A stretch of DNA of 10,575 bases, from the IMG/VR virus record IMGVR_UViG_2690315994_000024; one strand, given 5' to 3'. A program made the translations under genes and the position numbers. The stretch is from a virus. Its lineage: Duplodnaviria > Heunggongvirae > Uroviricota > Caudoviricetes. Below are positions 1 to 10,250 of the stretch, piece after piece. Position 1 is the stretch's first letter. The number at the start of each line of letters is the position of its first letter. The notes beneath the pieces are model-generated. The model saw only the letters and a program-made list of their open reading frames with translations, searched no databases and was not told where the DNA came from.

Positions 1-987
1 AAAGTCACCTTTACGATCGACTGGTTCAACATCAGCAGCGCGTCCCGGGTAGGGACTATCAAAATTTATAACCTCTCGGCAGATACTGTGAACCGAATTA
101 CCGGGCAGGAGTTTTCGAAAGTGCGTCTGATTGCGGGTTACGACGGTATCGCGCCGGAAGTGTCGGCAAGCGACGTCGGGACAGTGCGGGAAGTTGACGC
201 GGCGGACGTGGGCCAGAGTGATGGTCGCAACTACGGACTGATTTTCAGCGGTGAAATTCGCTACTCGGTTACAGGAAAAGACAGTCCGGTTGATTCCTAC
301 GTCCTGATTCAGGCAGCAGATACTGATCTGGCTTTTGCCACCAGTATAACCTCACAGACGCTGGCTGCCGGTTACACGGTCGCTGATGTAAACCGTGCGC
401 TGATGAAAGACTTCGAAGCCAAAGGCGCGACCGAAGGCCTGACGCCTGAAATGCCTGCTACTGTATTCCCCCGGGGGCGGGTACTCTTTGGCATGACGCG
501 GCATCTAATGGATAACGTAGCCGGGCAATGTGGCGCAACATGGCAATTCGTGGATGGTCAGCGCCAGATGGTGGCGAATAACGAATATGTTCATGAAGCG
601 ATTGTGCTCAACAGCGCTACCGGGCTTATTGGCATGCCGCAGCAGACTATCGGTAACGGCGTAAACGTCCGCGCGCTTATTAATCCGAACATCCGGGTTA
701 ACGGACTTATTCAGCTGGATCAGGCTTCCGTGTATCGTACCGCCTTGTCGAACAACGATATTGCGATGGCTGGTGGTCAGATCACCGACCAGAACACGGA
801 TGGAAATATCACGCTAAGCGGCACCACATCGCAGCCTGCCAGCATCGCAACGGATGGCGTTTATATTGTGCGCGGGATTATGTACACTGGCGACACAAGG
901 GGCCAGGCGTGGTACATGGATATGATGTGCGAAGCGCGCGGTGCGCAGGATATGCCATCCAGCACTGCTTTGCAGAGAGGATTATAG
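1..987 (+). CDS. Phage tail/baseplate structural protein, 5'-truncated by the window edge (hub-like by position upstream of the spike gene)
   Basis: Frame 1 is open from nt 1 with no stop until TAG 985-987, so the gene starts upstream of the window (the track's GTG at 88 is internal). It heads a chain of tightly coupled tail genes. Product is assigned from synteny only; I recognise no motif. Confidence 0.5.
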   Translation, partial: KVTFTIDWFNISSASRVGTIKIYNLSADTVNRITGQEFSKVRLIAGYDGIAPEVSASDVGTVREVDAADVGQSDGRNYGLIFSGEIRYSVTGKDSPVDSYVLIQAADTDLAFATSITSQTLAAGYTVADVNRALMKDFEAKGATEGLTPEMPATVFPRGRVLFGMTRHLMDNVAGQCGATWQFVDGQRQMVANNEYVHEAIVLNSATGLIGMPQQTIGNGVNVRALINPNIRVNGLIQLDQASVYRTALSNNDIAMAGGQITDQNTDGNITLSGTTSQPASIATDGVYIVRGIMYTGDTRGQAWYMDMMCEARGAQDMPSSTALQRGL

Positions 988-4440: not shown

Positions 4441-5117
4441 GCAAATATACCGAACTAATCACGAACTACCACGCCACCAAACCTAAATTTCTTGCACATG
4501 TTGATCTGATGACCCGGCCGCTTATTGATGTTGCGGCGGCCACCAGAGGGCTGATTACTGCATTTGATATTGACTCTGCGGTTGGTGTGCAACTTGACAT
4601 TCTGGGATTGTGGATCGGACGTAGCCGTGTTGTCAGCCAGCCTATCTCAGGTGTCTATTTCAGCTGGGATACCGACGGGCTTGGATATGATCAGGGTGTA
4701 TGGCAGGGGCCATACGATCCTGATTCCGGATACATGTACCTCAGCGATGAAACTTATCGTGTCATCCTTAAAGCGAAGATTGCGATTAATAACTGGGACG
4801 GACGGAATGATTCGCTTCCAGCAATTCTTGACACTGCAACAGCAGGATCCGGGCTGCGAATGCAGATAGTCGATAACCAGGACATGACGATATCGGTCTG
4901 GGTCTTTCCTGATACTGATATTTCAGATGTATCGCGTGAGTTAATTGCGGCAATTAAACAGGGGTATCTAACAGTAAAAGCCGCCGGGGTATGGGCGGGG
5001 GGTATTGAAACACCTTCGGTGGAAACTCCATCGGAAGGCTCTAAATTTTTTGGTTTTGATATGGATAACGAATTCATCAGTGGTTTTGATGTAGGGGCAT
5101 GGGGAGTATTACTCTGA
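4437..5117 (+). CDS. Tail protein I-like (P2 gpI / Mu gp48 / e14 YmfQ-type, DUF2313-like)
   Basis: ATGA overlap with the upstream gene at 4437-4440. 226 aa, immediately upstream of the tail-fibre gene as in P2/Mu/e14. Confidence 0.65.
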
Positions 5118-5962
5118 TGGCGAAAAATGACTTTAAAGCGTTTGCAACTGATCGAAATGCCAATGTTATGTCGCAGGAGGAATGGGAAGCGTTGCCTGCG
5201 CTTATATCCGGATTTACAGCAGGGAAAGCATCCAGTGCGCAAGTCAATAAGGTTATTCGGCAGGCCAGCTTTATTGCTGCAGCTCTGGCCCAGTTTGTAA
5301 GTGATAAAACGCAACGGGATGTGCTTGATAATGGTGATCTGCCCGGTTTTGTTGAATTGCTGGGATCGGGGTTTGCTGTTGAATACCTGAGCCGCAAGAA
5401 TCCGTTTGGTGATATCAAATCGGATGGCACGGTGAAAACGGCTCTCGAAAACCTTGGTTTGGGAGAAGGTTCGGCATTACCCGTTGGGGTGCCTGTTCCG
5501 TGGCCTTCAGCCACTCCGCCAACAGGCTGGCTGAAATGCAATGGTGCGGCTTTTTCTGCTGAAGAATACCCGGAACTGGCAAAGGCTTACCCGACTAATA
5601 AATTGCCTGATTTACGCGGTGAATTTATTCGTGGCTGGGATGACGGTCGCGGGATTGATTCTGGTCGTACTTTGCTTAATTGGCAGCCACACACAATTTT
5701 GGACCATGCACACTATATGGAATTATGGACAGGGGACGGACTCGCCGCAGGAAGTGCACGGGAAGGAGTAAATCCAGGAATACTGGCTACATACGGTGAC
5801 GGGGGAATAGTTAAAACAGACGAACCCGGTCTTAGGGTGCCTTCCTCACTACGAGCTATTAGCTCCCGTAGTGTAAAACGTTTTGGTGAAATTAGTGGAA
5901 AGGTAGGTACAGAAACTCGTCCTCGTAACATCGCTTTTAATTATATTGTGAGGGCCGCATGA
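5117..5962 (+). CDS. Tail fibre protein: constant N-terminal part (Sc) fused at crossover site A to variable C-terminal domain Sv1
   Basis: ATG 5117 overlaps the upstream stop (TGATG) with GGGGAG 10 nt upstream, and is preferred over the track's ATG 5099. C-terminal part has a tail-collar-like motif ([21 protein letters not shown]...[17 protein letters not shown]). Crossover site lies in-frame at codons LGLGE. Confidence 0.85.
5442..5467 (+). other. Invertase crossover site A (hix/gix-like, 12-2-12): CTCTCGAAAACC TT GGTTTGGGAGAA
   Basis: Two imperfectly inverted 12-bp half-sites flank a 2-bp TT core. It resembles hixL (TTCTTGAAAACC AA GGTTTTTGATAA) as I recall it. It sits exactly at the Sc/Sv boundary of the tail-fibre gene, where sequence identity with the inverted Sv1 copy begins. 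Confidence 0.75.
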
Positions 5963-6052
5963 TGAATAAAGTTATCTTAAATAACGAACTCATTGCCATA
6001 AAAGCGGGAGACATTATCATTTATAATTATGATGGTGAAACGCGGGAATATA
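5454..6052 (+). repeat. Inverted repeat P, left copy (Sv1 variable domain plus first 31 codons of tfa1); reverse complement of 8303-8901
   Basis: Translations are identical in several frames on both strands (e.g. track ORFs 5541-5771 and 8584-8814; 5713-5931 and 8424-8642). Nucleotides were spot-checked at 5941-5970 against 8381-8410. Coordinates sum to 14355. Confidence 0.85.
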
Positions 6053-6066
6053 GACTCAATAATTAA
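5959..6066 (+). pseudogene. Truncated tail fibre assembly gene tfa1' (first 31 codons intact, then 4 foreign codons and stop)
   Basis: ATGA overlap with the tail-fibre stop at 5959-5962. [31 protein letters not shown] is identical to the N-terminus of the full-length 201-aa tfa1 on the minus strand (7791-8396), then diverges at 6052/6053 into RLNN-stop. Confidence 0.7.
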
Positions 6067-6343
6067 CATATACACATATTCACGCTCATTAATACAATCA
6101 TTTAAAGGAAACAACAAACTCATTGAGGATTATGAAAAAATCCTTATTGGCATGGCAGACAATAACAAAGATAAAACCATGTATAAGAGATTACATGATG
6201 CAAAAATAAATGTAATGGTAGATTATGCTCAAGGGATAAAAAATATTGATGCAGAGCTAAGAGATGCAGTCAATAAGGGATTCGACATTATCGACCAAGA
6301 AGTAAAGTCACTACAAATGAAATTAAACAAATTAGCTTCATAG
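6053..6343 (+). pseudogene. C-terminal fragment (about 97 codons) of the downstream cargo gene X, lacking its N-terminal half
   Basis: From DSIINIYTYSRSL... to the stop it is identical to the C-terminal part of the 215-aa ORF at 9603-10250 (-). The first 8 codons of the track ORF 6029-6343 are junction read-through. Confidence 0.7.
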
Positions 6344-6390
6344 AATGCTCCACTCCCTGTTCAATATTTTTACAAGCTTATCAGCCAACC

Positions 6391-6419
6391 GCAGCACGTT
6401 CTTGCATACGACGTGCTAC
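6391..6419. terminator. Hairpin between convergent X' and invertase copy 1 (possible bidirectional terminator)
   Basis: Stem AGCACGT (6393-6399) pairs with ACGTGCT (6411-6417) around an 11-nt loop. There is no clean T-run, so function is uncertain. Confidence 0.25.
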
Positions 6420-6423
6420 GGTT

Positions 6424-6978
6424 TCATTTATCTCCGACCGGAAACTTCTTATACAGTGTCGATATACCAACATCATAGATGATCGCCACCTTCTGGCGAG
6501 GAACGCCTGATGCAATTAATCGTCCGGCCTGCTCCCATTGTTCTGGTGTAAGTTTGGGGCGACGTCCACCAATTCGTCCCTGTGCGCGAGCTGCTTCCAG
6601 TCCAGCTTTTGTTCGTTCAACAATCAGTTCACGCTCCATTTCAGCCAGGGCACCCATCACATGAAAGAAAAAGCGCCCCATTGGGGTACTGGTATCAATT
6701 GAATCCGTCAGACTACGAAAGTTGATGCCTCGTTCGCGCAACTCCTCCACCAGCACGACAAGATGCCGCATACTGCGCCCCAGTCGGTCCAGTTTCCAGA
6801 CCACCAGCGTGTCACCTGCCGATAATGTCCTGAGCAGCTTTTTCAGTCCTGGTCTGTCGGACTTTGTACCGCTTATCTTGTCTTCAAAAATCAGCTCACA
6901 TCCTGCACAGTTCAGCGCATTACGTTGTAGATCGGTATTCTGGTCATTTGTTGATACACGTACATAGCCAATAAGCAT
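6424..6978 (-). CDS. pin: Site-specific DNA invertase, serine recombinase of the Hin/Gin/Pin/Cin family (copy 1)
   Basis: N-terminus MLIGYVRVSTNDQNTDLQRNAL contains the catalytic Ser in the YVRVSTNDQ motif; core VVWKLDRLGRS and SLTDSIDTSTPMGRFFFHVMGALAEMERELIVERT; C-terminal HTH (IYDVGISTLYKK). 184 aa from the conserved MLIGY start; the track's upstream ATG 7014 adds 12 non-conserved codons. Closest recalled relative is e14 Pin. Confidence 0.9.
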   Translation of the reverse strand: MLIGYVRVSTNDQNTDLQRNALNCAGCELIFEDKISGTKSDRPGLKKLLRTLSAGDTLVVWKLDRLGRSMRHLVVLVEELRERGINFRSLTDSIDTSTPMGRFFFHVMGALAEMERELIVERTKAGLEAARAQGRIGGRRPKLTPEQWEQAGRLIASGVPRQKVAIIYDVGISTLYKKFPVGDK

Positions 6979-7032
6979 GTTAAATTCCCCTGGTAAAAGC
7001 AGGAATGATGCCATTTGCTTGTTATTTCTTCA

Positions 7033-7058
7033 TTTTCATAAACGTTGGTTTGGGAGAA
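7033..7058 (+). other. Invertase crossover site B: TTTTCATAAACG TT GGTTTGGGAGAA
   Basis: Shares core and right half-site with site A and is the exact reverse complement of site C. It lies 20 bp upstream of the invertase copy 1 start, at the in-frame start of the Sv2 cassette. Confidence 0.75.
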
Positions 7059-7379
7059 GCGGCAAAACGGAATGTGGGAACTGGGGAAAATCAGATACCT
7101 GATATGTCATCATATGCATCAGGTTCAGGCTGGCGAAAAATGCCAGATGGTTCAATTGAACAGTGGGGACGAATTAGTTTTCCTAGTGAACACGGGCCTG
7201 TATCCGCCAATGTTTCATTCCCGATTCCATTTACACAGACACCGGGCATTGTAATTGTGTGCGATGGTGGTTTCGGGGGGGGGAATATGTGGGGGGCGAC
7301 CAACTGGAGCACTACCGGCTTCATAGCTCACTGCAATTATGGTCTTGAAGGTGGTGCGTTTTTCGCTAAGGGCTGGTAA
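7059..7379 (+). CDS. Silent tail-fibre variable cassette Sv2 (alternative C-terminal domain, about 107 codons), not fused to Sc in this isomer
   Basis: Reading frame continues in-frame from the GLGE codons of site B to TAA 7377-7379. Upstream codons [14 protein letters not shown] are antisense read-through of the invertase 5' region, not a real start. Contains a G9 tract at 7275-7283. Confidence 0.65.
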
Positions 7380-7819
7380 TGATGAAATATCTGTACGTAA
7401 ACAACCTGGCATATCCTTACGAACTTAAGTCTCTTTATGTTGAAAAAGGTGAGTGGCCTGAAGAAAAAGGTGTTGATATAGACGAAGTAATTTTCAGGGA
7501 ATATTTCTATGATACACCACCAGAAGGAAAATACAGATGTGTCGGAGAAGATGGACTGCCTGCATGGGTAGATATTCCTCCACCAACACGTGAAGAACAA
7601 ATTGCATCAGCCGAAACTAAAAAGCAGCAATTGATTAATCAGGCCAACGAATACATCAACAAACAATGGCCAGGTAAAGCATCAATTGGTCGTCTGAAAG
7701 GTGAGGAACTGGTGCAATATAATTTGTGGCTGGATTATCTGGACGCACTGGAGCTGATCGATACTTCCGGTGCGCCAGATATTGAATGGCCTACGCCTCC
7801 GGCAGTTCAGGCCAGATGA
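7379..7819 (+). CDS. Tail fibre assembly protein (Tfa) for the Sv2 cassette
   Basis: TAATG overlap with the Sv2 stop. C-terminus ...YNLWLDYLDALELIDTSGAPDIEWPTPP parallels the C-terminus of tfa1 (...LNAVLDYIDAVTATDTSTAPDVIWPELP). 3' end overlaps the convergent tfa1 by 29 bp, as in Mu U/U'. Confidence 0.75.
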   Translation: MMKYLYVNNLAYPYELKSLYVEKGEWPEEKGVDIDEVIFREYFYDTPPEGKYRCVGEDGLPAWVDIPPPTREEQIASAETKKQQLINQANEYINKQWPGKASIGRLKGEELVQYNLWLDYLDALELIDTSGAPDIEWPTPPAVQAR

Positions 7820-8396
7820 CATCCGGCGCTGTGCTGGTATCTGTTGCCGTCACCGCGTCAATGTAATCCAGCACAGCGTTAAGGCGGGTTGTTTCTGCCT
7901 GCGTCAGCTTCCGTCCGGCCTGTAATTTCAGTTGAATCAGACTGATGGAGGCCATTGCAGTATCAATCAGCGACTGGCGCTGTGCTTCTGCTGCATCTAC
8001 TGCTGCGCCGTGCTGTGCCTCGGTATCTGTCACCCATTTCTCACCATCCCATTTATCATATGGCGTTAATGGGGCGATAGTGGTTGTATTTTCAGGGTAA
8101 TCACCCGGAACTGTGATTTCTTTGGTATCTCCCGTTTCGGTACTATAGACAACTTCACCGCGATGGTCTGGCACATATTCCCATGAATTTAAATCTACAG
8201 AGCGACAGATTGCATAACCAGCTTTATGTGTACCTGGTGCATCCAAACAGGAACATGCCGGTATACCGACGCCGACAGCGAGATATTCAGTTGATGTAGA
8301 AATATATTCCCGCGTTTCACCATCATAATTATAAATGATAATGTCTCCCGCTTTTATGGCAATGAGTTCGTTATTTAAGATAACTTTATTCATCAT
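7791..8396 (-). CDS. Tail fibre assembly protein Tfa1, full length (201 aa), partner of Sv1
   Basis: Start overlaps the Sv1 stop on the minus strand. Its first 31 codons are duplicated in tfa1' at 5959-6051. Confidence 0.8.
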   Translation of the reverse strand: MMNKVILNNELIAIKAGDIIIYNYDGETREYISTSTEYLAVGVGIPACSCLDAPGTHKAGYAICRSVDLNSWEYVPDHRGEVVYSTETGDTKEITVPGDYPENTTTIAPLTPYDKWDGEKWVTDTEAQHGAAVDAAEAQRQSLIDTAMASISLIQLKLQAGRKLTQAETTRLNAVLDYIDAVTATDTSTAPDVIWPELPEA

Positions 8397-8901
8397 GCGG
8401 CCCTCACAATATAATTAAAAGCGATGTTACGAGGACGAGTTTCTGTACCTACCTTTCCACTAATTTCACCAAAACGTTTTACACTACGGGAGCTAATAGC
8501 TCGTAGTGAGGAAGGCACCCTAAGACCGGGTTCGTCTGTTTTAACTATTCCCCCGTCACCGTATGTAGCCAGTATTCCTGGATTTACTCCTTCCCGTGCA
8601 CTTCCTGCGGCGAGTCCGTCCCCTGTCCATAATTCCATATAGTGTGCATGGTCCAAAATTGTGTGTGGCTGCCAATTAAGCAAAGTACGACCAGAATCAA
8701 TCCCGCGACCGTCATCCCAGCCACGAATAAATTCACCGCGTAAATCAGGCAATTTATTAGTCGGGTAAGCCTTTGCCAGTTCCGGGTATTCTTCAGCAGA
8801 AAAAGCCGCACCATTGCATTTCAGCCAGCCTGTTGGCGGAGTGGCTGAAGGCCACGGAACAGGCACCCCAACGGGTAATGCCGAACCTTCTCCCAAACCA
8901 A
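8303..8901 (-). repeat. Inverted repeat P, right copy
   Basis: Reverse complement of 5454-6052; see left copy. Confidence 0.85.
8393..8887 (-). CDS. Silent tail-fibre variable cassette Sv1 (second, inverted copy of the domain currently fused to Sc)
   Basis: From [25 protein letters not shown]... to the stop it is identical to the C-terminal part of the expressed tail fibre. The track's N-terminal [14 protein letters not shown] is read-through into the invertase-proximal repeat. Confidence 0.75.
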   Translation of the reverse strand, partial: GSALPVGVPVPWPSATPPTGWLKCNGAAFSAEEYPELAKAYPTNKLPDLRGEFIRGWDDGRGIDSGRTLLNWQPHTILDHAHYMELWTGDGLAAGSAREGVNPGILATYGDGGIVKTDEPGLRVPSSLRAISSRSVKRFGEISGKVGTETRPRNIAFNYIVRAA

Positions 8902-8913
8902 CGTTTATGAAAA
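8888..8913 (-). other. Invertase crossover site C (reverse complement of site B): + strand TTCTCCCAAACC AA CGTTTATGAAAA
   Basis: Lies between the Sv1 cassette and invertase copy 2. Both repeat families (P and Q) meet and overlap precisely at this site. Confidence 0.75.
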
Positions 8914-8967
8914 TGAAGAAATAACAAGCAAATGGCATCATTCCTGCTTTTACCAGGGGAATTTAAC

Positions 8968-9522
8968 ATGCTTATTGGCTATGTACGTGTATCAACAAAT
9001 GACCAGAATACCGATCTACAACGTAATGCGCTGAACTGTGCAGGATGTGAGCTGATTTTTGAAGACAAGATAAGCGGTACAAAGTCCGACAGACCAGGAC
9101 TGAAAAAGCTGCTCAGGACATTATCGGCAGGTGACACGCTGGTGGTCTGGAAACTGGACCGACTGGGGCGCAGTATGCGGCATCTTGTCGTGCTGGTGGA
9201 GGAGTTGCGCGAACGAGGCATCAACTTTCGTAGTCTGACGGATTCAATTGATACCAGTACCCCAATGGGGCGCTTTTTCTTTCATGTGATGGGTGCCCTG
9301 GCTGAAATGGAGCGTGAACTGATTGTTGAACGAACAAAAGCTGGACTGGAAGCAGCTCGCGCACAGGGACGAATTGGTGGACGTCGCCCCAAACTTACAC
9401 CAGAACAATGGGAGCAGGCCGGACGATTAATTGCATCAGGCGTTCCTCGCCAGAAGGTGGCGATCATCTATGATGTTGGTATATCGACACTGTATAAGAA
9501 GTTTCCGGTCGGAGATAAATGA
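8968..9522 (+). CDS. pin: Site-specific DNA invertase, Hin/Gin/Pin/Cin family (copy 2, identical to copy 1)
   Basis: Same protein as 6424-6978. ATG 8968 is preceded by AGGGGA. This copy is in the canonical position, immediately outside the right crossover site. Confidence 0.9.
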   Translation: MLIGYVRVSTNDQNTDLQRNALNCAGCELIFEDKISGTKSDRPGLKKLLRTLSAGDTLVVWKLDRLGRSMRHLVVLVEELRERGINFRSLTDSIDTSTPMGRFFFHVMGALAEMERELIVERTKAGLEAARAQGRIGGRRPKLTPEQWEQAGRLIASGVPRQKVAIIYDVGISTLYKKFPVGDK

Positions 9523-9526
9523 AACC

Positions 9527-9555
9527 GTAGCACGTCGTATGCAAGAACGTGCTGC
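9527..9555. terminator. Hairpin between convergent invertase copy 2 and X (mirror of 6391-6419)
   Basis: Stem AGCACGT (9529-9535) pairs with ACGTGCT (9547-9553) around an 11-nt loop, starting 5 nt after the invertase stop. No clean T-run. Confidence 0.25.
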
Positions 9556-9602
9556 GGTTGGCTGATAAGCTTGTAAAAATATTGAACAGGGAGTGGAGCA
9601 TT

Positions 9603-10250
9603 CTATGAAGCTAATTTGTTTAATTTCATTTGTAGTGACTTTACTTCTTGGTCGATAATGTCGAATCCCTTATTGACTGCATCTCTTAGCTCTGCATCAA
9701 TATTTTTTATCCCTTGAGCATAATCTACCATTACATTTATTTTTGCATCATGTAATCTCTTATACATGGTTTTATCTTTGTTATTGTCTGCCATGCCAAT
9801 AAGGATTTTTTCATAATCCTCAATGAGTTTGTTGTTTCCTTTAAATGATTGTATTAATGAGCGTGAATATGTGTATATGTTAATTATTGAGTCTCTAGCA
9901 GAATCATTTAGTTTTGCAATGACATTCGCATTTTGCTCATAGAATGTGAAATTATCATCCCCTACAGGGAATGTGAGAATCAACATTTGTCCCGGTTTTA
10001 TATTATCAATGTGTGTTTTCATCCTTTTATTATATAAATTGATTAGGGTGAAAACTTCTCCCTTAACTCCTTTTAATACTGAAAGTTGTAATTCAAGGGA
10101 TTCTCTTTCTGTCTCTACTTTAGACAGCTTAGCTTGTTGGGTCACTCCTTTTAGGGTAAACCATCCGCCAATAAGAGTACCAACTAGAGCTGTGAGGGAG
10201 GAGGATAACCATCCAGGTATGCTATTTAAAAGATTACTAAATTCACTCAT
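9603..10250 (-). CDS. Cargo protein X: N-terminal transmembrane helix followed by a charged, probably coiled-coil region; unknown function
   Basis: 215-aa ORF in AT-rich DNA. N-terminus IPGWLSSSLTALVGTLIGGWFTL is hydrophobic; the rest is K/E/D/L-rich. Convergent with the invertase. Confidence 0.6.
   Translation of the reverse strand: MSEFSNLLNSIPGWLSSSLTALVGTLIGGWFTLKGVTQQAKLSKVETERESLELQLSVLKGVKGEVFTLINLYNKRMKTHIDNIKPGQMLILTFPVGDDNFTFYEQNANVIAKLNDSARDSIINIYTYSRSLIQSFKGNNKLIEDYEKILIGMADNNKDKTMYKRLHDAKINVMVDYAQGIKNIDAELRDAVNKGFDIIDQEVKSLQMKLNKLAS

What the first reader, a model, noticed from the sequence alone, without database searches (positions are those of the whole stretch)
6040..6066. 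Unique breakpoint joining tfa1 codon 31 to the middle of cargo gene X
Up to 6052 the sequence equals tfa1 (...GGGAATATA); from 6052/6053 it equals the interior of X (AGACTCAATAATTAAC...), with only about 1 nt of microhomology. This is the signature of illegitimate recombination or a chimeric join, not of site-specific inversion (no hix-like site here). It creates two pseudogenes and is the only sequence in the window that cannot be produced by inversions from a canonical layout.
Basis: seen in the sequence. Interest (0 to 1): 0.6.

Follow-up and report, generated by a model that had tools for sequence, protein, structure and literature searches.

The report
Scaffold gap in invertible tail-fibre locus
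The supposed recombination breakpoint is almost certainly not biological: in the deposited draft genome that base is an "N", an unclosed scaffold gap that arose because a phage tail-fibre segment was present in both orientations in the sequenced culture.

Summary
Sequence up to 6051/6052 is tfa1 codons 1-31, and from 6053 it is the interior of gene X, starting at codon 120.

The window is the first 10,575 nt of E. coli draft contig CYBJ01000009.1 (GCA_001284825.1). That record differs from the window at one base only: 6052 is N in the record and A in the window. It is the only non-ACGT base in 15,962 nt. So the breakpoint is a residual single-N scaffold gap, and the "1 nt microhomology" comes from the N-to-A substitution.

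The 596 nt left of the N and the 994 nt right of it are exact reverse complements of 8304-8899 and 8900-9893. Each runs outward from a 26-bp hix-type crossover site. Deleting 5454-7044 restores the canonical layout with one invertase, as in near-identical relatives. It also restores an intact 223-aa fibre that matches proteins in three other assemblies exactly.

The scaffold carries junctions from both orientations of a Pin/Gin-type invertible segment. The likely cause is a mixed-orientation culture plus greedy extension of the gap edges. The second invertase gene and both pseudogenes are then spurious. The junction occurs nowhere else I searched. The real biology, an ordinary tail-fibre inversion switch, is already known.

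The parts
5117..5453 (+). Constant 5' part (Sc) of the tail-fibre gene, ending in the left half-site of hix1
   Evidence: Gene call 5117-5962 with a PF07484 Collar domain. Aligns colinearly with the canonical loci L001, L002 and L012.
5442..5467 (+). hix1 crossover site, CTCTCGAAAACC TT GGTTTGGGAGAA (Sc half-site | Sv1 half-site). This junction type belongs to the 'Sv1-on' orientation.
   Evidence: Similar to the E. coli prophage crossover sites and consensus tabulated in PMC4134206.
5456..6051 (+). Redundant block A: the Sv1 exon plus tfa1 codons 1-31. It is the left gap edge, extended into the partner that the 'Sv1-on' orientation places there. It duplicates 8304-8899.
   Evidence: 596 nt with 0 mismatches to the reverse complement of 8304-8899. 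It continues colinearly with the canonical L002 and L012 until exactly 6052.
6052..6052 (.). Single N in the deposited record, shown as A in the window. It is a residual scaffold gap and the whole of the 'breakpoint'.
   Evidence: It is the only difference between the window and L003, and the only non-ACGT base in 15,962 nt. The same N is at the matching position of L013.
6053..7046 (+). Redundant block B: X codons 120-215 on the + strand, a second copy of the invertase gene on the - strand (6424-6978), and the gin-side half of hix2. It is the right gap edge extended leftwards. It duplicates 8900-9893.
   Evidence: 994 nt with 0 mismatches to the reverse complement of 8900-9893. Gene calls.
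7033..7058 (+). hix2, TTTTCATAAACG TT GGTTTGGGAGAA (invertase-side half-site | Sv2 half-site). This junction type also belongs to the 'Sv1-on' orientation.
7047..7819 (+). Sv2 exon (to 7379) and its chaperone gene tfa2 (7379-7819)
   Evidence: PF21882 Gp53-like_C (weak) and PF02413 Caudo_TAP. Joining Sc to Sv2 at the hix centres gives an intact 223-aa fibre that matches proteins in 3 other E. coli assemblies exactly.
7791..8396 (-). Intact tfa1 (tail-fibre assembly protein, 200-201 aa)
   Evidence: PF02413, E = 1.5e-31. The exact protein is encoded on canonical loci elsewhere, L012 and L014.
8393..8899 (-). Sv1 exon, the silent copy in the backbone orientation
   Evidence: PF07484 Collar. Reverse complement of block A.
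8888..8913 (-). hix3 (invertase-side half-site | Sv1 half-site). This junction type belongs to the 'Sv2-on' orientation.
8968..9522 (+). The real Pin/Gin-type serine invertase gene (184 aa)
   Evidence: PF00239 Resolvase, E = 1.6e-51, and PF02796 HTH_7. The exact protein is on more than 1000 contigs.
9603..10250 (-). Intact gene X: a 215-aa hypothetical protein, 33% GC, next to the invertase at the prophage end
   Evidence: No Pfam, PADLOC or PHROG match. Single copy and full length in 80 of 5,426 complete E. coli genomes.

Best explanation
The 6052/6053 join is a scaffolding and gap-filling artefact in a short-read draft assembly. It was triggered by a real, ordinary Pin/Gin-type invertible tail-fibre segment that was present in both orientations in the sequenced culture.

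The true locus is most likely canonical: Sc - hix - [Sv2 tfa2 / tfa1' Sv1'] - hix - invertase - X.

The scaffold backbone carries the 'Sv2-on' orientation on its right side. A gap was left at the Sc|Sv2 junction. Each gap edge was then extended greedily with reads from the 'Sv1-on' orientation. The Sc edge ran through hix into Sv1 and tfa1, for 596 nt. The Sv2 edge ran backwards through hix into the invertase gene and X, for 994 nt. These two extensions belong to different places on the molecule, so they could never overlap. The gap stayed open as one N. The window shows that N as A.

Shown here:
- The N sits exactly at the join.
- Both blocks are 100% identical to sequence elsewhere in the scaffold.
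- Both blocks start at hix centres.
- Junction types from both orientations occur in one scaffold.
- Removing the blocks restores the canonical locus.

Inferred:
- The culture was mixed in orientation.
- The software process was an iterative gap filler such as SSPACE plus GapFiller. The pipeline used for this assembly was not identified.
For: 1. The source record has N at 6052. It is the only difference from the window and the only non-ACGT base in 15,962 nt. The chance that a lone N falls on the join by accident is about 1 in 10^4.
2. Exact look-ups of the 104-aa and 35-aa products that cross the join failed. Yet genes with exactly those coordinates are on record for this contig, and the 281-aa neighbour was found. 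This is consistent with the recorded products differing at the codon that holds the N.
3. Blocks 5456-6051 and 6053-7046 have 0 mismatches to the reverse complements of 8304-8899 and 8900-9893.
4. Both blocks begin at the central TT of a 26-bp hix site.
5. Three of the four possible hix junction types are present in one scaffold: Sc|Sv1 and invertase|Sv2 from one orientation, and invertase|Sv1 from the other. A single canonical genome cannot hold all three.
6. Deleting 5454-7044 (1,591 nt) gives an 8,984-nt locus that is colinear with canonical L001 (8,994 nt) and comparable in span to L002 (8,980 nt; other orientation). It also gives an intact 223-aa Sc-Sv2 fibre that is an exact match to proteins in three other E. 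coli assemblies.
7. The nearly identical prophage in L012 (99.6-99.9%) has the canonical layout with one invertase, and the shorter contig L014 shows the same for the part it covers.
8. An independent assembly contig, L015, shows the same palindromic path. It has invertase codons 1-72 on both sides of the segment as 299-nt perfect terminal inverted repeats.
9. The junction is absent from 5,426 complete E. coli genomes, the GTDB representatives and the JGI metagenomes.
10. Literature:
   - E. coli prophage tail-fibre segments occur at about 50% mixed orientation in cultures. They give spurious contigs, and the authors explicitly warn of artefactual duplications in phage regions (PMC4134206).
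   - GapFiller extends each gap edge base by base and closes a gap only if the two extensions overlap by at least 10 nt (PMC3446322).
   - The Sanger pipeline runs 120 GapFiller iterations and notes that the greedy steps can make false joins (PMC5320598).
Against: - Raw reads were not available, so the absence of junction-spanning reads is inferred from the N, not seen.
- The assembler and pipeline for GCA_001284825.1 were not identified (one search found nothing). That a single N marks an unclosed or negative gap rests on my knowledge of SSPACE and GapFiller behaviour. No paper I read states it.
- I found no reason why the extensions stopped at tfa1 codon 31 and X codon 120. X is single copy, and the mosaic boundary in the tfa1 region lies elsewhere.
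- The layout is also exactly what a real 1.59-kb tandem duplication followed by two hix inversions would give.
Confidence: 0.9

Rival explanations
1. The rearrangement is real. A head-to-tail tandem duplication of the 1.59-kb segment [tfa1 N-terminus - Sv1 - hix - invertase - X C-terminus] (8304-9893) arose by illegitimate recombination. Two invertase-mediated inversions among the resulting three hix sites then followed. The result would be a two-invertase, three-site locus.
For: The left block order (hix-Sv1-tfa1N | Xc-invertase-hix) is a circular permutation of the reverse complement of 8303-9897. That is exactly what a tandem duplication plus inversions between hix1 x hix3 and then hix2 x hix3 would predict, and all three hix sites have the predicted half-site combinations. 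Perfect identity of the copies fits a very recent event.
Against: A real junction would be covered by reads and assembled through. Instead the record has an N exactly there. The junction is found in no other genome or metagenome. Near-identical prophages are canonical. Mixed orientation plus edge extension explains every feature without any new event.
Confidence: 0.06
2. A chimeric DNA fragment or read, formed by ligation or PCR during library preparation, joined tfa1 to X and was built into the contig.
For: The join has no meaningful homology and no recombination site, as expected for random chimeras.
Against: A chimeric read would give a defined base at the join, not an N. It would not explain why both flanks start at hix centres, or why an entire second invertase copy is present. 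Assemblers normally remove singleton chimeras by coverage cut-offs (my knowledge).
Confidence: 0.02
3. The invertase itself recombined two quasi-hix sites, one in tfa1 and one in X. This would be secondary-site recombination, as described for Cin.
For: An active serine invertase is encoded next door. Use of quasi-sites by Cin is known from the literature (my knowledge, not checked here).
Against: No hix-like core lies within reach of 6052, 8303 or 9897, even with 2 mismatches. The parental sequences share no 2-bp core in register. The N at the join argues against any sequenced junction.
Confidence: 0.01

Closest known systems
Artefactual duplications and spurious contigs at invertible prophage tail-fibre segments in E. 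coli assemblies (EC958 Phi1, Phi2 and Phi4; Forde et al. 2014, PMC4134206)
   Same: An E. coli prophage tail-fibre C-terminal exon and chaperone cassette is flanked by 26-bp crossover sites next to a DNA invertase. Both orientations are present in one culture. The assembler emits the alternative orientation as extra sequence. The authors warn that merging it creates artefactual duplications.
   Different: In EC958 the alternative allele came out as separate PacBio contigs. Here it was stitched into the main scaffold on both sides of a one-N gap in a short-read draft, which creates an apparent breakpoint and a second invertase gene.
Gin/Cin/Pin/Hin serine-invertase switches (Mu G segment, P1 C segment, e14 P segment)
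   Same: The real biology under the artefact has these features. There is a 184-aa Resolvase plus HTH_7 invertase. There are inverted 26-bp sites with an AAACC/GGTTT core. Two alternative fibre C-terminal exons each have their own tfa chaperone. Both orientations are seen among genomes.
   Different: Nothing unusual once the redundant 1,591 nt are removed. The cassette sits behind a Baseplate_J/DUF2612 tail module rather than a Mu, P1 or P2 one.
Multiple-inversion systems with more than two crossover sites (Min of plasmid p15B; R64 shufflon)
   Same: As written, the scaffold has three hix sites and would allow nested inversions.
   Different: The third site and the second invertase gene lie in the redundant blocks that flank the N. 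There is no evidence they exist in the genome. This comparison rests on my knowledge of those systems.

Membership tests
Assembly/scaffold-gap artefact | Ambiguous base(s) (N) exactly at the join in the deposited record | tested here: met
   Position 6052 is N in L003 and L013. It is the only non-ACGT base in 15,962 nt and the only difference from the window.
Assembly/scaffold-gap artefact | The sequence on both sides of the gap is redundant with sequence elsewhere in the same scaffold | tested here: met
   596 nt and 994 nt, each with 0 mismatches to its reverse-complement partner.
Assembly/scaffold-gap artefact | Removing the redundant sequence restores the layout of close relatives and intact genes | tested here: met
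   The 8,984-nt repaired locus is colinear with L001. Its 223-aa fibre ORF is intact and an exact match to proteins in three other assemblies. L012 is canonical at 99.6-99.9% identity.
Assembly/scaffold-gap artefact | No reads span the join, and read depth on the duplicated blocks is single-copy | not testable with these tools
Illegitimate-recombination junction / tandem duplication | A contiguous sequenced junction between the two parental sequences | tested here: not met
   The junction base is N in the record.
Illegitimate-recombination junction / tandem duplication | Microhomology at the junction | tested here: inconclusive
   The apparent 1-nt homology (A at 6052) is the N shown as A. Both parents happen to have A there.
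Illegitimate-recombination junction / tandem duplication | The junction is inherited or seen in independent sequences | tested here: not met
   None of 5,426 complete E. coli genomes spans it. The 24-mer has 0 matches in the GTDB representatives and the JGI metagenomes.
Gin/Hin/Cin/Pin invertible tail-fibre switch (the underlying locus) | A small serine recombinase with a Resolvase catalytic domain and a C-terminal HTH_7 | tested here: met
   PF00239, E = 1.6e-51, and PF02796, E = 4.4e-13.
Gin/Hin/Cin/Pin invertible tail-fibre switch (the underlying locus) | 26-bp crossover sites in inverted orientation that bound the segment, with identity changing at the central dinucleotide | tested here: met
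   hix1, hix2 and hix3 have exact AAAC[CG]TTGGTTT cores. The repeat arms end at the central TT.
Gin/Hin/Cin/Pin invertible tail-fibre switch (the underlying locus) | Two alternative fibre 3' exons, each with its own chaperone gene, arranged tail to tail | tested here: met
   Sv2-tfa2 on the + strand and tfa1-Sv1 on the - strand.
Gin/Hin/Cin/Pin invertible tail-fibre switch (the underlying locus) | Both orientations are observed | tested here: met
   L001 has Sv2 on, while L002 and L012 have Sv1 on. Junction types of both orientations occur within this one scaffold.
Gin/Hin/Cin/Pin invertible tail-fibre switch (the underlying locus) | A Fis-dependent recombinational enhancer inside the 5' part of the invertase gene | not tested
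   Not examined.
Multiple-inversion system (Min / shufflon type) | More than two genuine crossover sites in one genome | tested here: not met
   The third site lies in the redundant block next to the N. Relatives have two sites.

The most novel reading that the evidence does not exclude
The scaffold could be right despite the N. In that case this isolate carries a very recent 1.59-kb tandem duplication spanning tfa1-N, Sv1, hix, the invertase and X-C. Its own invertase then flipped the duplication into an inverted configuration. That would create a three-site, two-invertase nested inversion system, a nascent Min-like multiple-inversion locus. In the configuration seen, the duplicate copies are inverted relative to each other, so recombination between them would invert rather than delete, although further hix inversions could restore a deletable direct arrangement.
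Probability: 0.05. Interest if true: 0.4.

Novelty: not a real feature. Interest (0 to 1): 0.04.

Why it matters
As biology it does not matter. The locus is a standard invertible tail-fibre (host-range) switch of an E. coli prophage.

It matters as a caution. A draft record in the public databases carries a phantom second invertase gene and two phantom pseudogenes. Showing the single N as a normal base makes a scaffold gap look like a recombination breakpoint.

The one useful biological by-product is indirect evidence that the invertase was actively flipping the segment in the sequenced culture.

Tried and rejected
1. Independent occurrences of the junction. I searched 5,426 complete E. coli genomes, and ran a 24-mer against the GTDB representatives and the JGI metagenomes. 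None was found.

2. Exact look-ups of products that cross the join. I tried the 104-, 103-, 102-, 35- and 34-aa forms, and forms with X at the N codon. None is on record. The versions with X are uninformative, because such products may not be indexed.

3. The 63-aa C-terminal X ORF. It is common, but it comes from frameshifted X genes or from contigs that start inside X, not from this junction.

4. A quasi-hix site at the join or at the parental points. None was found. I rejected invertase-mediated secondary-site recombination.

5. A repeat or mosaic boundary that would explain why the extensions stopped at tfa1 codon 31 and X codon 120. X is single copy and full length wherever it occurs. The common similarity boundary in the Sv1/tfa1 region lies about 140 nt upstream of the join equivalent. 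The stopping points remain unexplained.

6. Function of X. It has no Pfam, PADLOC or PHROG match.

7. Provenance of the assembly in the literature. There were no hits for the accessions. A search of the scaffolder-evaluation paper for the single-N convention found nothing, so that convention rests on my own knowledge.

8. Logan read-level assemblies of the same isolate. None appeared among the contigs that encode the exact tfa1 protein.

Full report
**The observation.** The window holds two long perfect inverted repeats. One pairs 5449-6052 with 8303-8906, and the other pairs 6049-7059 with 8887-9897. Base-by-base comparison shows that the tfa1-type match runs through 6052 and then breaks. The parental tfa1 continues with TTTCTAC. 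The X-type match starts at 6052, and the parental X reads ...GCTAGA before GACTC. tfa1 starts at 5959, so 6051 is the last base of codon 31. Position 6053 corresponds to the first base of codon 120 of X, which lies at 9603-10250 on the minus strand. A core pattern search with up to 2 mismatches finds only the three expected sites, at 5449, 7040 and 8895.

**Context.** The window is the tail end of an E. coli prophage:
- A baseplate module (Baseplate_J, Phage_Wedge1/DUF2612).
- A tail-fibre gene whose 3' exon lies in an invertible segment.
- Two tail-fibre assembly genes.
- A 184-aa Resolvase plus HTH_7 invertase.
- A 215-aa hypothetical gene X and an 88-aa gene.
- The chromosomal genes yfhH, yfhb and purL beyond the window.

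Related complete genomes have the canonical layout Sc-hix-[Sv/tfa, tfa'/Sv']-hix-pinE-X. It occurs in either orientation and is about 1.58 kb shorter than the window. No complete genome covers 80% or more of the window, or spans the junction.

**Geometry.** There are three 26-bp sites:

| Site | Position | Sequence | Half-sites |
|---|---|---|---|
| hix1 | 5442-5467 | CTCTCGAAAACC TT GGTTTGGGAGAA | Sc / Sv1 |
| hix2 | 7033-7058 | TTTTCATAAACG TT GGTTTGGGAGAA | invertase side / Sv2 |
| hix3 | 8888-8913, minus strand | not re-listed | invertase side / Sv1 |

. The repeat arms end at the central TT. The piece between hix1 and hix2 consists of Sv1 plus tfa1 codons 1-31, then the join, then X codons 120-215 and a second invertase gene. 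It is a circular permutation of the reverse complement of 8303-9897. Two readings fit that geometry. One is a real 1.59-kb tandem duplication followed by two hix inversions. The other is an assembly that mixed the two orientations.

**The decisive result.** The exact 281-aa fibre protein occurs on a single public contig, CYBJ01000009.1 of GCA_001284825.1. The window is the first 10,575 nt of that contig (L003). Comparing the two gives exactly one difference in 10,575 positions. Position 6052 is N in the record and A in the window. It is the only non-ACGT character in the 15,962 nt fetched. It is also present in a second, independent fetch of the record (L013). The breakpoint is therefore a one-N placeholder between two sequence pieces, not a sequenced junction. 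The ~1 nt microhomology is the N written as A.

The protein look-ups fit this. Genes at 5959-6066 and 6029-6343 are on record for the contig. The products translated from the window could not be found, although the neighbouring 281-aa product could.

**Supporting tests.**
- Blocks 5456-6051 (596 nt) and 6053-7046 (994 nt) have no mismatch to their partners.
- Cutting out 5454-7044 (1,591 nt) leaves 8,984 nt. This is colinear with L001 through the Sc-hix-Sv2 junction.
- The same cut creates an intact 223-aa Sc-Sv2 fibre. That sequence occurs, residue for residue, in three other E. coli assemblies.
- Nearly identical prophages have the canonical layout with one invertase. These are L012, at 99.6-99.9% identity, and L014.
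- The scaffold contains the junction types Sc|Sv1 and invertase|Sv2 from one orientation, and invertase|Sv1 from the other. One canonical genome cannot contain all three, but a culture with both orientations does.
- An independent contig, L015 (2,566 nt), has invertase codons 1-72 on both sides of the segment as 299-nt perfect terminal inverted repeats. It shows the same assembler path elsewhere.

**How the artefact most likely arose (inferred).** A scaffolder linked the Sc contig to the contig starting at Sv2. This is correct for the Sv2-on orientation. A gap remained at the hix junction, where reads disagree. A greedy gap filler then extended both edges with reads from the Sv1-on orientation. 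From Sc it ran into Sv1 and tfa1. From Sv2 it ran backwards into the invertase gene and X.

GapFiller works this way. It adds one nucleotide at a time from each edge. It closes a gap only if the two extensions overlap by at least 10 nt and the length fits (PMC3446322). One widely used pipeline runs it for 120 iterations and warns that the greedy steps can make false joins (PMC5320598). The two extensions here belong to different places, so they could never merge, and one N was left.

I could not establish which software made this assembly. The meaning of a single N in SSPACE or GapFiller output is from my own knowledge.

Forde et al. documented about 50% mixed orientation of such segments in E. 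coli EC958. They saw spurious contigs as a result, and warned of artefactual duplications in phage regions (PMC4134206).

**Rivals.**
- A real tandem duplication plus inversions fits the geometry. It would have produced read-supported sequence across the join rather than an N, and it is seen nowhere else. I give it about 6%.
- A library chimera would give a defined base at the join. It does not explain the hix-anchored blocks. I give it about 2%.
- Invertase action at quasi-sites is not supported by the sequence. I give it about 1%.

**What remains unexplained.** I do not know why the extensions stopped at tfa1 codon 31 and X codon 120. X is single copy. The common mosaic boundary in the Sv1/tfa1 region lies elsewhere. 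Contigs of four other short-read assemblies also start inside X, within about 40-110 nt of the equivalent point. X has 33% GC. A coverage drop in AT-rich DNA is possible but untested.

**Verdict.** The breakpoint is not a real feature. The biology underneath is a known kind of invertible tail-fibre switch.

Noticed in passing
L015:1-2566 (GCA_003604455.1, QZLQ01004179.1); equivalent to window 6761-9185: An independent 2,566-nt contig consists of the invertible segment flanked on both sides by invertase codons 1-72 in inverted orientation (299-nt perfect terminal inverted repeats). It shows the same 'invertase on both sides' path as the window, and is most likely also a mixed-orientation assembly artefact.
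   Followed up: partly
window 9893-10004 (interior of X); L008-L011 contig starts: Four other short-read E. coli assemblies have contigs that begin inside X, at window equivalents 10004, 9984, 9936 and 9931. This is close to where the window's right-hand piece begins (9893 equivalent). X is single copy and has 33% GC. The cause was not established. Low coverage of AT-rich DNA is one possibility.
   Followed up: partly
window 9603-10250 (-): Gene X is a 215-aa protein with a hydrophobic N-terminus. It has no Pfam, PADLOC or PHROG match. It is present in 80 of 5,426 complete E. coli genomes, each time as a single full-length copy (95-100% identity); in the loci examined it lies next to the invertase at the prophage end. 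Many draft genomes carry it split by a frameshift: a 63-aa C-terminal ORF occurs on more than 167 contigs, for example L004-L007.
   Followed up: partly
L021:6026-9690 (E. coli MLI104K1, NZ_CP116923.1): The query spanning the Sv1 3' end and the first part of tfa1 matches at 99.8% identity in a P2-like prophage (tail sheath, tube, GpE, late control D), where the annotated neighbours have the same cassette layout (Sv1, tfa1, a second tfa, one invertase). In the window the cassette follows a Baseplate_J/DUF2612 module. This part of the switch is evidently shared between unrelated tail modules.
   Followed up: no
L001:8888-9441 (E. coli 2011C-4251): The pinE invertase is annotated as frameshifted in this relative, so its segment may be locked or flipped in trans. 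Sv2 and the start of tfa2 (window about 7110-7633) are also too diverged from L001 for megablast. This indicates allelic diversity of the second exon.
   Followed up: no
window 1-987: The window starts at base 1 of the source contig, inside a tail or baseplate gene (partial 328-aa product). The prophage is therefore split across contigs in this draft, and the locus lies in a poorly assembled region overall.
   Followed up: no
window 6052: The window shows an unambiguous A where the source record has N. Ambiguity codes seem to have been replaced when the window was prepared. This can turn gaps into apparent junctions in other windows too.
   Followed up: yes
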